DNA of 62,781 nt from Legionellales bacterium (GCA_002692205.1 NZJM01000047.1:1-62781), one strand, 5' to 3'; counted from the first letter of the stretch, positions 41,941 to 42,307 are shown. Made by a program: numbers and translations. Notes: generated from the letters alone by a model not told the origin.

Positions 41941-41980
41941 TTGGTTGTTTTTAACCAATTATCTGGTTATTTTGAACCAG
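41941..41980 (+). promoter_or_regulatory. Tandem 18-bp palindromes, candidate enhancer (UAS) for a sigma-54 activator
   Basis: TTGGTTgtttttAACCAA (41941-41958) and CTGGTTattttgAACCAG (41963-41980). Each has 6-bp perfect arms and a 6-nt spacer. Their centres are 22 bp apart, and they lie about 90-125 bp upstream of the -24/-12 element. Confidence 0.45.
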
Positions 41981-41986
41981 AAATTA

Positions 41987-41999
41987 AATCATTTTTTTG
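41987..41999 (+). promoter_or_regulatory. IHF-like site
   Basis: AATCATTTTTTTG matches WATCAANNNNTTR at 12 of 13 positions and lies between the palindromes and the -24/-12 element. Specificity is low in AT-rich DNA. Confidence 0.3.
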
Positions 42000-42065
42000 T
42001 TTTGAGAAATGATTAATTTCTATAAGTTAATGTTTTATATAGAATTAAAGAGTTTTTTACCATAA

Positions 42066-42081
42066 TGGCACGTAAACTGCA
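42066..42081 (+). promoter_or_regulatory. Sigma-54 (-24/-12) type promoter
   Basis: TGGCACGtaaaCTGCA versus the consensus TGGCACG-N4-TTGCW. GG and GC are at the exact spacing, with one mismatch in the -12 element. It lies 56 nt upstream of the mini-ORF ATG. Confidence 0.6.
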
Positions 42082-42136
42082 TTATATTTAGTTACATAAA
42101 CAGTATTTTTTAACGTTAAAAAAAAGAGGGTAATAT

Positions 42137-42212
42137 TATGAAATGGGAAACACCTGAGTACAGCGACATCCGTTTTGGTTTTGAAGTAACCATGTACATT
42201 AACAACAAATAA
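42137..42212 (+). pseudogene. pqqA: PqqA-like precursor peptide gene interrupted by one extra T (in-frame TGA at 42182-42184)
   Basis: AGAGGG SD 7 nt upstream. Frame 1 reads MKWETPEYSDIRFGF-stop and the +1 frame continues EVTMYINNK-stop. Joined, the sequence is a canonical PqqA with the E-X3-Y motif. The break is in a T5 run. Confidence 0.55.
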
Positions 42213-42235
42213 AACTTCCTTCTCGTAAGAAGAAT

Positions 42236-42264
42236 AAAAAAGGACCTCATCGGTCCTTTTTTTT
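42236..42264. terminator. Bidirectional rho-independent terminator (pqqA-like unit and dsbA)
   Basis: A-run, then stem AGGACC, loop tcatc, stem GGTCCT, then T8. The A-run/T-run symmetry lets it also serve convergent dsbA. Confidence 0.8.
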
Positions 42265-42307
42265 GCTCATCATTTATGTGTGGTTCTAAATTATTTGTCG
42301 AATATAT

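What the first reader, a model, noticed from the sequence alone, without database searches (positions are those of the whole stretch)
41941..42265. Complete sigma-54 / enhancer-type transcription unit dedicated to a roughly 170-nt transcript in the purK-dsbA gap
The plus strand of this 476-bp spacer carries the following elements in canonical order and spacing. (a) Two 18-bp palindromes, TTGGTTgtttttAACCAA (41941-58) and CTGGTTattttgAACCAG (41963-80), share a TGGTT-N6-AACCA core. Their centres are 22 bp apart, about two helical turns. (b) An IHF-like AATCATTTTTTTG lies at 41987-99. (c) TGGCACGtaaaCTGCA (42066-81) has GG and GC at the exact -24/-12 spacing of TGGCACG-N4-TTGCW. (d) An AGAGGG SD is followed by an ATG at 42137. 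(e) A 24-codon PqqA-like frame follows. (f) The unit ends in a GC-stem/T8 terminator. A 7-mer like TGGCACG with a correctly phased TGC is unlikely by chance in this AT-rich spacer. This is the architecture of a gene activated by a bacterial enhancer-binding protein. No rpoN or activator gene is in the window, and I do not recognise TGGTT-N6-AACCA as the site of a characterised activator, so the regulator and its signal are unknown. The product could be a peptide mRNA, a regulatory sRNA (sigma-54-dependent sRNAs such as Qrr, GlmY and CrcZ are precedents), or both.
Basis: partly seen in the sequence, partly recalled or inferred. Interest (0 to 1): 0.7.

Follow-up and report, generated by a model that had tools for sequence, protein, structure and literature searches.

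The report
Sigma-54 enhancer promoter driving stand-alone pqqA
A lone gene for the 24-residue precursor peptide of the cofactor PQQ sits behind a conserved sigma-54 promoter with two upstream activator sites, and related genomes point to a previously undescribed two-component system as its likely regulator.

Summary
The purK-dsbA gap has two TGGTT-N6-AACCA dyads 22 bp apart, TGGCACGtaaaCTGCA 124 bp downstream, an SD, a 24-codon ORF and a terminator. The ORF is true PqqA (TIGR02107 46.9 bits, cutoff 20).

In 33 distinct related sequences (GC 31-57%) the dyad half-sites, the 22-bp spacing, the 122-125 bp dyad-to-TGGCAC distance and TGGCAC are kept, while the sequence between them diverges. pqqA varies at third codon positions (4/4/20 columns), so the roughly 173-nt transcript is a peptide mRNA, not primarily an sRNA.

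A metagenome scan for the dyad pair alone returned 21 pqqA units. It also returned Methylotenera operons in which the same dyads and a sigma-54 promoter precede a TonB receptor and an NtrC-family response regulator. In 11 TCS loci fetched from marine relatives, pqqA lies divergent from a sensor kinase plus the orthologous sigma-54 regulator, with the dyads in between. Both regulator groups share the HTH recognition helix.

The activator is absent from the window, and its presence in this genome is untested.

The architecture is classical. The target, motif and regulator appear undescribed.

The parts
41941..41958 (.). Upstream activator site 1: dyad TTGGTT-N6-AACCAA, centred about -142 from the predicted start
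   Evidence: The half-sites are at least 90% conserved in 33 distinct orthologous regions while the N6 varies.
41963..41980 (.). Upstream activator site 2: dyad CTGGTT-N6-AACCAG, centred about -120, 22 bp from site 1
   Evidence: The 22-bp spacing holds in nearly all orthologues.
41987..41991 (+). Degenerate third half-site (AATCA; AACCA in the near-identical relative L139 and in several other lineages).
   Evidence: Extra TGGTT/AACCA half-sites at 11-bp phasing flank the two dyads in L006, L021, L032, L062, L109, L117 and L131.
42023..42035 (-). Candidate IHF or bend site, centred about -63. Here it has 2 mismatches to WATCAA-N4-TTR; most relatives have 1 mismatch at the same position.
   Evidence: a minus-strand match at -43/-42 from the -24 TGG in 20 of 33 sequences. 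The surrounding spacer is 73-93% A+T in most.
42066..42081 (+). Sigma-54 type -24/-12 promoter TGGCACG-N4-CTGCA (GG at 42067-68, GC at 42079-80)
   Evidence: TGGCAc-N3-A-N-cTGCa is conserved in purK-type units. The distance from dyad 1 is 122-125 bp in 31 of 33.
42092..42092 (+). Predicted transcription start (inferred from the -12 GC; not measured)
   Evidence: Inference from the established spacing of sigma-54 promoters. It gives transcripts of 171-192 nt (one pqqA) or 279-300 nt (two pqqA) across relatives.
42106..42123 (.). 18-bp perfect palindrome TTTTTTAACGTTAAAAAA in the predicted 5' UTR; function unknown
   Evidence: The TTTAACGTTAAA core is conserved in L001-L004, L026 and L127 but not in L005-L007.
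42125..42130 (+). Shine-Dalgarno AGAGGG, 7 nt before the ATG
   Evidence: A GAGG core is present in all orthologues.
42138..42212 (+). pqqA: MKWETPEYSDIRFGFEVTMYINNK (Glu16 and Tyr20 form the E-X3-Y cross-link pair)
   Evidence: Among 32 unique CDS, 4/4/20 columns vary at codon positions 1/2/3.
42214..42224 (+). Conserved CU-rich motif ACTTCCTTCTC just after the stop codon; may pair with the SD
   Evidence: The RNAalifold consensus pairs it with GAGG, but covariation is weak.
42236..42264 (.). Intrinsic terminator (A6-GGACC-TCATC-GGTCC-T8), bidirectional, shared with the convergent dsbA
   Evidence: Stems differ but stay complementary in relatives (GGGAC/GTCCC, GGAACC/GGTTCC, GGGGTC/GACCCC).

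Best explanation
This is a stand-alone pqqA gene, encoding the substrate peptide for PQQ biosynthesis, under enhancer-dependent sigma-54 control.

**Proposed mechanism.**
1. RNA polymerase with sigma-54 sits as a closed complex on TGGCACG-N4-CTGCA (42066-81).
2. An NtrC-family response regulator binds the two TGGTT-N6-AACCA dyads, centred near -142 and -120 on the same face of the helix.
3. On phosphorylation it oligomerises.
4. The A+T-rich spacer, with an IHF-like site near -63, lets it loop to the promoter, and it uses ATP to open the promoter.
5. The resulting mRNA of about 173 nt encodes only PqqA and stops at a bidirectional terminator shared with dsbA.

**Proposed regulator.** The activator is most likely the orthologue of a conserved two-component pair found next to pqqA in sister lineages.
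- The kinase is about 490 aa, with a predicted periplasmic four-helix bundle followed by HAMP, HisKA and HATPase domains.
- The regulator is about 465 aa, with receiver, sigma-54 AAA+ and HTH_8 domains.
- PQQ output would therefore be set by an extracytoplasmic signal acting on the supply of the stoichiometrically consumed precursor.

**Shown:** the sequence elements, their conservation, the PqqA identity, the coding constraint, the association of the dyads with this regulator family, and the shared HTH.

**Inferred:** sigma-54 dependence, the start site, binding, looping, the signal, and the presence of the regulator and rpoN in this genome.
For: **The elements are present and unlikely by chance**.

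**PqqA identity** is above the curated cutoffs.

**Conservation in relatives.**
- Seven GTDB genomes with PurK 65-76% identical to the window's all carry the same unit.
- 33 distinct promoter regions keep the half-sites, the 22-bp spacing, the 122-125 bp distance and TGGCAC, while the rest diverges.
- The unit stays intact when separated from purK (L005, L007).

**Independent association of the dyads with pqqA.** A metagenome scan for the dyad pair alone, with no pqqA information, gave 21 loci with pqqA in the right orientation and distance (16 distinct dyad strings) among 119 hits.

**Link to a regulator family.**
- The same dyad pair lies 120-151 bp upstream of sigma-54-like promoters (for example TGGAACGCGTCTTGCA) before a TonB-receptor plus response-regulator operon in Methylotenera.
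- In the 11 TCS loci listed, pqqA is divergent from the kinase-regulator pair. The dyads lie between them in 9 loci; none was detected in L149 or L153.
- Marine and Methylotenera regulators are 51-55% identical, against 37-39% to another sigma-54 activator. They share the recognition helix NVSxAARxLGITRMxxRYR.
- The regulator's nearest solved relatives are NtrC1, NtrC4 and LuxO.

**Coding and termination.**
- Codon-position variation is 4/4/20.
- Terminator stems stay complementary across relatives.
Against: - No rpoN, activator or kinase gene lies in the 62.8-kb window or in L001-L007.
- I could not show that the window's genome encodes them. Seven kinase look-ups led to other assemblies.
- In units next to the two-component genes, the -12 element reads TGT, TGA or TGG instead of TGC. 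That weakens the sigma-54 reading for that subclass, though not for the window.
- The regulator has GAFTNA in place of the canonical GAFTGA in all marine members.
- The window's own IHF-like site has two mismatches.
- No transcript, binding or genetic data exist.
- pqqBCDE are not in the window.
Confidence: 0.75

Rival explanations
1. The unit is a genuine sigma-54 promoter with activator sites, but the activator in this genome is a different enhancer-binding protein. On this reading the kinase-regulator pair found beside pqqA elsewhere is not the activator here.
For: The pair is absent from the window and from L001-L007. Linkage to the window's lineage could not be established. purK-type units have a canonical -12 element, whereas units next to the two-component genes do not, so the two subclasses could be wired differently.
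Against: The dyad sequence, the 22-bp phasing and the distance of about 124 bp are identical in both subclasses. The same dyads also track the orthologous regulator in Methylotenera, which has a conserved recognition helix. The window's exact PurK and the P0002 kinase were both found in run SRR5010551, so the two loci at least co-occur in one sample.
Confidence: 0.12
2. pqqA is transcribed from an ordinary sigma-70 promoter, and the TGGCAC match is fortuitous or serves another purpose. The palindromes would then be operators for a conventional repressor or activator, for instance one shared with the divergent purK.
For: The spacer is A+T-rich, so -10-like hexamers are common. A sigma-70-like pair (TTAACG-18-TATTAT) scores at 42110-39. 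The -12 GC is not kept in units next to the two-component genes.
Against: - The one sigma-70-like hit overlaps the SD and ATG, and the region has fewer such hits than shuffles do (1 against 3.8).
- TGGCAC is kept at a fixed distance from the dyads in 31 of 33 sequences.
- The dyads follow pqqA, not purK, when the two are separated.
- The dyads are repeatedly adjacent to a sigma-54 activator gene and to other -24/-12 promoters.
Confidence: 0.08
3. The transcript of about 173 nt acts mainly as a regulatory RNA, in the manner of GlmY or Qrr, and the PqqA frame is secondary.
For: The transcript is short and dedicated, with a sigma-54 promoter and a strong terminator. Non-coding blocks are conserved in the 5' UTR (palindrome at 42106-23) and just after the stop codon (42214-24).
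Against: - Variation is concentrated at third codon positions (4/4/20), and only six peptide variants occur among 32 CDS.
- The peptide scores as a PqqA equivalog.
- Several lineages carry two tandem pqqA copies in one unit, which suits peptide dosage.
- No Rfam family matches.
- Folding energy is not unusual (z = -1.07).
Confidence: 0.05

Closest known systems
NtrC-activated glnAp2 promoter of enteric bacteria (own knowledge)
   Same: A sigma-54 -24/-12 promoter, with two dyad sites for a response-regulator activator on the same helical face well over 100 bp upstream. Activation is by DNA looping.
   Different: The motif is TGGTT-N6-AACCA rather than the NtrC site. The target is a cofactor precursor peptide, not nitrogen assimilation. 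The regulator fails the NtrC equivalog cutoffs (332 bits against 558.6, and 271 against 620).
GlrK/GlrR (QseE/QseF) control of glmY (own knowledge)
   Same: A membrane sensor kinase with a HAMP domain and a sigma-54 response regulator drive a dedicated transcript of about 180 nt from a -24/-12 promoter. The promoter has multiple upstream dyads and an IHF site.
   Different: GlrR sites are TGTC-N10-GACA and the product is an sRNA. Here the product is a translated peptide mRNA. The regulator scores 292 bits against the GlrR model, cutoff 763.
Described pqqA expression in Pseudomonas and other PQQ producers
   Same: The same precursor peptide family. pqqA is expressed as a short, abundant message ending at a hairpin.
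   Different: In those organisms pqqA heads a pqq(F)ABCDE operon, and its control is attributed to regulators such as AgmR (PMC12997753). Here pqqA is alone among housekeeping genes, with pqqBCDE outside the 62.8-kb window. I found no paper in the searched library that links pqqA to sigma-54.
ZraS/ZraR
   Same: The predicted kinase core is structurally closest to the ZraS cytoplasmic domain (Foldseek E = 5e-14). The partner is a sigma-54 response regulator.
   Different: ZraR equivalog score is 315 bits against a cutoff of 760. The sensor domain here is a predicted four-helix bundle with no Pfam match.

Membership tests
Sigma-54 (-24/-12) promoter | GG and GC doublets 10 bp apart within TGGCAC-N5-TTGCW | tested here: met
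   TGGCACGTAAACTGCA at 42066-81 is the only exact match in the window, with 0.12 expected.
Sigma-54 (-24/-12) promoter | Element conserved in orthologous promoters | tested here: met
   TGGCA(C/T) is present in all 33 sequences. TGC at -12 is present in all purK-type units, but is replaced by TGT, TGA or TGG in units next to the two-component genes.
Sigma-54 (-24/-12) promoter | rpoN present in the genome and transcription dependent on it; start about 12 nt after the GC | not testable with these tools
   No rpoN in the window. The only evidence is indirect: related lineages encode proteins with a sigma-54 interaction domain.
Enhancer (UAS) for a bacterial enhancer-binding protein | Dyad-symmetric sites 80-150 bp upstream, phased on one helical face | tested here: met
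   Two dyads 22 bp apart, 124 bp before the -24 TGG. Both spacings are conserved.
Enhancer (UAS) for a bacterial enhancer-binding protein | A cognate activator with a sigma-54 AAA+ domain and an HTH, associated with the sites | tested here: inconclusive
   Met in sister lineages and in Methylotenera: adjacency, shared recognition helix. Not shown for the window's own genome. Binding was not tested.
Enhancer (UAS) for a bacterial enhancer-binding protein | IHF site between enhancer and promoter | tested here: inconclusive
A WATCAA-N4-TTR match with 1 mismatch lies at a fixed position in 20 of 33 sequences, and the window has 2 mismatches there.
PqqA (PQQ precursor peptide) | Match to the curated PqqA models above their cutoffs; E-X3-Y motif | tested here: met
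   TIGR02107 46.9 bits against 20. PF08042 43.1 bits against 21.1. The peptide has E16-V-T-M-Y20.
PqqA (PQQ precursor peptide) | pqqBCDE present in the same genome | not testable with these tools
   None in the window or in the fetched flanks.
Sigma-54-dependent sRNAs (GlmY, Qrr, CrcZ) | Match to the RNA family, and no coding constraint | tested here: not met
   No Rfam match, except a sub-threshold hit to the terminator. Third-position variation shows coding constraint.
Named sigma-54 response regulators (NtrC, AtoC, ZraR, GlrR, LuxO, NtrX, PEP-CTERM regulator) | Score above the NCBIfam equivalog cutoff | tested here: not met
   The best scores are AtoC 363 bits (cutoff 714) and the PEP-CTERM regulator 359 bits (cutoff 502.6). 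All models fall below their cutoffs. The kinase matches no NCBIfam family at the 1e-60 threshold used.
PqqU (YncD) TonB-dependent PQQ importer, considered for the Methylotenera receptor | Score above the PqqU equivalog cutoff | tested here: not met
   84.6 bits against a cutoff of 1200 for L106, and no hit for L053. No PDB sequence relative at E <= 1e-5.

The most novel reading that the evidence does not exclude
An uncharacterised two-component system is conserved from marine Gammaproteobacteria to the betaproteobacterial methylotroph Methylotenera, near dnaE-accA-tilS in both. It may sense an extracytoplasmic cue tied to quinoprotein activity, such as the PQQ, lanthanide or substrate state of the periplasm. 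It would then govern PQQ economy through one DNA motif. In marine lineages it would ration the precursor peptide. In Methylotenera it would switch on a TonB-dependent receptor, possibly for a cofactor or metal chelate. That would amount to a make-or-import control circuit for a redox cofactor.
Probability: 0.2. Interest if true: 0.7.

Novelty: new member of a known kind. Interest (0 to 1): 0.55.

Why it matters
PQQ is the cofactor of periplasmic alcohol, methanol and sugar dehydrogenases, which matter for carbon turnover in the sea. How uncultured marine bacteria regulate its synthesis is essentially unknown. PqqA is consumed one molecule per PQQ, so controlling it alone is an economical throttle.

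This work turns an anonymous spacer into a testable regulon:
- a defined DNA motif;
- a defined promoter class;
- a named candidate kinase-regulator pair with more than 1,400 relatives at E <= 1e-10;
- a cultured organism, Methylotenera, in which the same motif and regulator can be studied genetically.

Tried and rejected
- **Linking the window's lineage to the two-component system.** Seven kinase look-ups (P0005, P0017, P0029, P0033, P0061, P0073, P0088) and a cluster-member listing returned other assemblies or no names. The only link is co-occurrence in run SRR5010551.
- **Motif scan for activators.** A GAFTGA/RpoN-box scan of the window and loci found nothing. It initially missed the marine regulators, because they carry GAFTNA. 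A tblastn scan corrected this, and the window is still negative.
- **Methylotenera receptor as PqqU.** Rejected.
- **Kinase structure.** The model plus Foldseek matched only generic kinase cores, so it gave no clue to the ligand.
- **Rfam on the spacer.** Nothing.
- **Literature.** Searches for pqqA with sigma-54 or rpoN, for 'pqqA promoter', and for Methylotenera with TonB and sigma found no relevant description.
Not conserved.
- **Unrelated hits in the metagenome scan.** 60 of the 119 dyad-pair hits are a conserved element from gut metagenomes and were set aside.
- **Third exact dyad at 52539.** It lies inside an ABC ATPase gene and is single, so I treated it as chance.

Full report
**1. The observation**

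- Two 18-bp palindromes lie at 41941-58 and 41963-80. They share TGGTT-N6-AACCA and their centres are 22 bp apart.
- TGGCACGTAAACTGCA lies at 42066-81.
- AGAGGG lies at 42125-30.
- A 24-codon ORF runs from 42138 to 42212. The ATG is at 42138, one base later than stated.
- A GGACC/GGTCC hairpin with eight T lies at 42242-64.

Chance is a poor explanation.
- Exact TGGTT-N6-AACCA occurs three times in the window against 0.14 expected, and no shuffle reaches three.
- TGGCAC-N6-TGCW occurs once against 0.12 expected.

The flanking genes are purE-purK (minus strand), then dsbA and a dihaem cytochrome c (minus strand).

**2. The ORF is pqqA, and the transcript is a peptide mRNA**

The peptide MKWETPEYSDIRFGFEVTMYINNK scores 46.9 bits on TIGR02107 (cutoff 20) and 43.1 bits on PF08042 (cutoff 21.1). 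It carries the Glu-X3-Tyr pair that is cross-linked during PQQ synthesis (own knowledge of the pathway).

Evidence that it is translated:
- Among 32 unique 75-nt coding sequences from relatives, 4, 4 and 20 columns vary at codon positions 1, 2 and 3. Only six peptide variants occur.
- Several lineages carry two tandem pqqA copies inside one unit.
- No Rfam family matches the spacer.
- The predicted transcript does not fold unusually well (z = -1.07).

A primary sRNA role is therefore unlikely.

Pfam scans of 49 window ORFs found only housekeeping functions. There were no pqqBCDE, no quinoprotein, no sigma-54 and no activator. pqqA stands alone here.

**3. Comparative test of the promoter**

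A PurK search of one genome per species gave seven uncultured marine Gammaproteobacteria, some labelled Legionellales, with PurK 65-76% identical to the window's. All seven carry the same unit.

Pooling these with metagenome and look-up loci gives 33 distinct upstream regions, from DNA of 31-57% GC.
- The consensus is TGGTT-N6-(A/G)ACCA-N6-TGGTT-N6-AACCA. The half-sites are at least 90% conserved and the N6 is free.
- The distance from dyad 1 to the -24 TGG is 122-125 bp in 31 of the 33. It is 139 and 147 bp in the other two.
- The promoter reads TGGCAc-N3-A-N-cTGCa.
- The sequence between the elements has diverged freely.
- In L005 and L007 another gene separates the unit from purK, yet the unit is intact and begins at dyad 1.

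With a start inferred at 42092, the dyads are centred near -142 and -120. This is the geometry of classical NtrC-type enhancers (own knowledge).

Terminator stems change but stay complementary.

**4. The IHF claim**

It overlaps a position where the close relative L139, and several other lineages, have a third AACCA half-site. In some lineages extra half-sites flank the dyads at 11-bp steps.

A better candidate bend site is a minus-strand WATCAA-N4-TTR match with one mismatch. It lies 42-43 bp before the -24 TGG in 20 of 33 sequences. The window's version, at 42023-35, has two mismatches. I rate this inconclusive.

**5. Who binds the dyads**

I scanned the metagenome collection for the dyad pair alone.
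- 60 carry an unrelated element from gut metagenomes.
- 21 have pqqA downstream at the expected distance, with 16 distinct dyad strings.
- About 13 have the dyads 120-151 bp upstream of sigma-54-like promoters such as TGGAACGCGTCTTGCA or TGGAATATATTTTGCT. These precede a TonB-dependent receptor gene and a receiver/sigma-54 AAA+/HTH_8 regulator of about 470 aa.
- Two have the dyads upstream of a Tad-type secretin operon (item 10 in section 9), and the remainder are miscellaneous.

The receptor-regulator class is Methylotenera: P0127 is named 'MULTISPECIES ... [Methylotenera]', and locus L151 comes from isolate assembly GCA_000384375.1.

Two of the pqqA loci, L122 and L024, showed pqqA divergent from a 488-aa kinase (HAMP, HisKA, HATPase_c) and a receiver/sigma-54 regulator, with the dyads in between.
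- The kinase family is large and well conserved: 1,446 hits at E <= 1e-10, and the top 120 are 54-99% identical.
- All 11 TCS loci listed (GC 31-57%, including a 3.66-Mb contig) have pqqA-kinase-regulator adjacency and TGGCA(C/T)G upstream of pqqA. Dyads lie 22-28 bp from the kinase start in 9 of them; none was detected in L149 or L153. Where dyad 1 was found, TGGCA(C/T)G lies 119-125 bp from it.

The marine and Methylotenera regulators are related at the level expected of orthologues.
- They are 51-55% identical to each other, against 37-39% to another sigma-54 activator from L137.
- They share the recognition helix NVSxAARxLGITRMxxRYR.
- Both loci sit near dnaE-accA-tilS.

The regulator's nearest solved relatives are NtrC1, NtrC4 and LuxO. 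It reaches no NCBIfam equivalog cutoff.

The kinase model has a confident all-helical periplasmic bundle at about residues 37-188. Foldseek matches only kinase cores, with ZraS the best.

**6. Mechanism**

Shown:
- the elements and their conservation;
- the PqqA identity and the coding constraint;
- the repeated association of the dyad pair with this regulator family and with -24/-12 promoters.

Inferred:
- The phosphorylated regulator binds the two dyads, oligomerises, loops across the A+T-rich spacer and opens the sigma-54 closed complex.
- This yields a pqqA mRNA of about 173 nt, ending at a terminator shared with dsbA.
- Because PqqA is consumed stoichiometrically, this would throttle PQQ synthesis in response to a periplasmic signal.
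- In units next to the two-component genes, the dyads lie just upstream of the kinase start. Regulator binding probably also autoregulates the pair.

**7. Weak points**

- Neither rpoN nor the kinase-regulator pair is in the window or in L001-L007.
- I could not place the pair in the same genome as a purK-type unit. The only link is that the window's exact PurK and the P0002 kinase both occur in run SRR5010551.
- Units next to the two-component genes have TGT, TGA or TGG at -12 rather than TGC.
- The marine regulators carry GAFTNA rather than GAFTGA.
- There are no expression or binding data.

**8. Comparison and novelty**

The architecture is that of glnAp2/NtrC. Because it drives a short dedicated transcript under a kinase plus a sigma-54 regulator, it also resembles glmY/GlrKR.

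It differs in three respects:
- the motif (TGGTT-N6-AACCA);
- the product (a cofactor precursor peptide);
- the regulator (an unnamed subfamily).

Described pqqA genes head pqq operons under other regulators (PMC12997753). I found no paper that links pqqA to sigma-54.

I classify it as a new member of a known kind. The interest is moderate. The regulon is clean and testable, and it has a cultured entry point in Methylotenera.

**9. Things noticed in passing**

1. An 18-bp perfect palindrome in the 5' UTR (42106-23).
2. A conserved CU-rich block just after the stop codon that may pair with the SD (42214-24).
3. A conserved block between purK and the dyads that looks like the purK promoter.
4. 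The bidirectional terminator.
5. The gut-metagenome element.
6. Dyad pairs upstream of unrelated small gene pairs in low-GC contigs.
7. The GAFTNA variant in the regulators.
8. Two tandem pqqA copies in one unit in six loci.
9. Shared synteny of the regulator gene near dnaE-accA-tilS in Methylotenera and the marine lineages.
10. A dyad pair plus a sigma-54-like promoter upstream of a Tad secretin operon, beside a PQQ-dependent dehydrogenase (L083, L095).

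Noticed in passing
window 42106-42123: An 18-bp perfect palindrome, TTTTTTAACGTTAAAAAA, lies in the predicted pqqA 5' UTR (about +15 to +32). Its TTTAACGTTAAA core is conserved in L001-L004, L026 and L127 but not in L005-L007. It could be an operator for a second regulator.
   Followed up: partly
window 42214-42224: A conserved CU-rich motif, ACTTCCTTCTC, lies directly after the pqqA stop codon in purK-type units. RNAalifold pairs it with the SD GAGG, but covariation is weak. Units next to the two-component genes have a different conserved block there (TTGTTG..CTTAGCTTAAGC).
   Followed up: partly
window about 41882-41925: A conserved block, GCGGCGAATTTAGCATAAA-N9-TAAATCTGTATTT, lies between the purK start and the dyads in the window, L001-L004 and L006. 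On the purK strand it reads like an extended -10 (TGCTAAATT) followed by a GC-rich discriminator. It is probably the purK promoter.
   Followed up: no
window 42236-42264: The pqqA terminator has an A-run and a T-run flanking the stem, and it also scores on the minus strand. It probably terminates the convergent dsbA as well.
   Followed up: partly
L015-L132 (60 loci, e.g. L016 1022-1059): Sixty contigs, many labelled human-gut metagenome (the rest of unstated origin), share a near-identical non-coding element: TGGTTAAGTCTAACCAC-N5-GTGGTTAA(A/T)GTTAACCA. There is no Rfam match and no obvious ORF. It is unrelated to pqqA.
   Followed up: partly
L083 7121-7158; L095 4404-4441: The same dyad pair and a sigma-54-like promoter (GGGAATGAAATTTGCT, detected in L083 only; none found in L095) lie upstream of a Tad-type secretin operon (CpaC-like, TPR, CpaE-like). 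The operon is immediately downstream of a PQQ-dependent dehydrogenase lipoprotein. This may be another regulon member.
   Followed up: partly
L134 9470-10867 and other marine regulators; L053, L086, L125: The sigma-54 contact loop reads GAFTNA instead of the canonical GAFTGA in all marine regulators and in some Methylotenera ones. L038 and L106 keep GAFTGA.
   Followed up: no
L005 3876-4154, L007 3887-4167, L021, L032, L042, L131: Two tandem pqqA copies, each with its own SD, lie within one promoter-terminator unit. The predicted transcripts are 279-300 nt.
   Followed up: partly
L035, L084, L110, L112: Tandem TGGTT-N6-AACCA pairs lie directly upstream of a conserved pair of genes (206 aa and 157 aa) in low-GC contigs, with no -24/-12 element. 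This is probably a different DNA-binding protein with a similar half-site.
   Followed up: no
L134, L146 (1-3300) and L151 (1-3261): The regulator gene lies a few kb from dnaE-accA-tilS both in the marine Gammaproteobacteria and in the betaproteobacterium Methylotenera. This suggests old shared synteny. A TonB2-type cluster (DUF3450, ExbB, ExbD, TonB, TPR) lies nearby in the marine loci.
   Followed up: no
window 52539-52554: A third exact TGGTT-N6-AACCA (TGGTTACGCATAACCA) lies inside an ABC-transporter ATPase gene. It is single and has no nearby -24/-12 element, so it is probably chance.
   Followed up: partly
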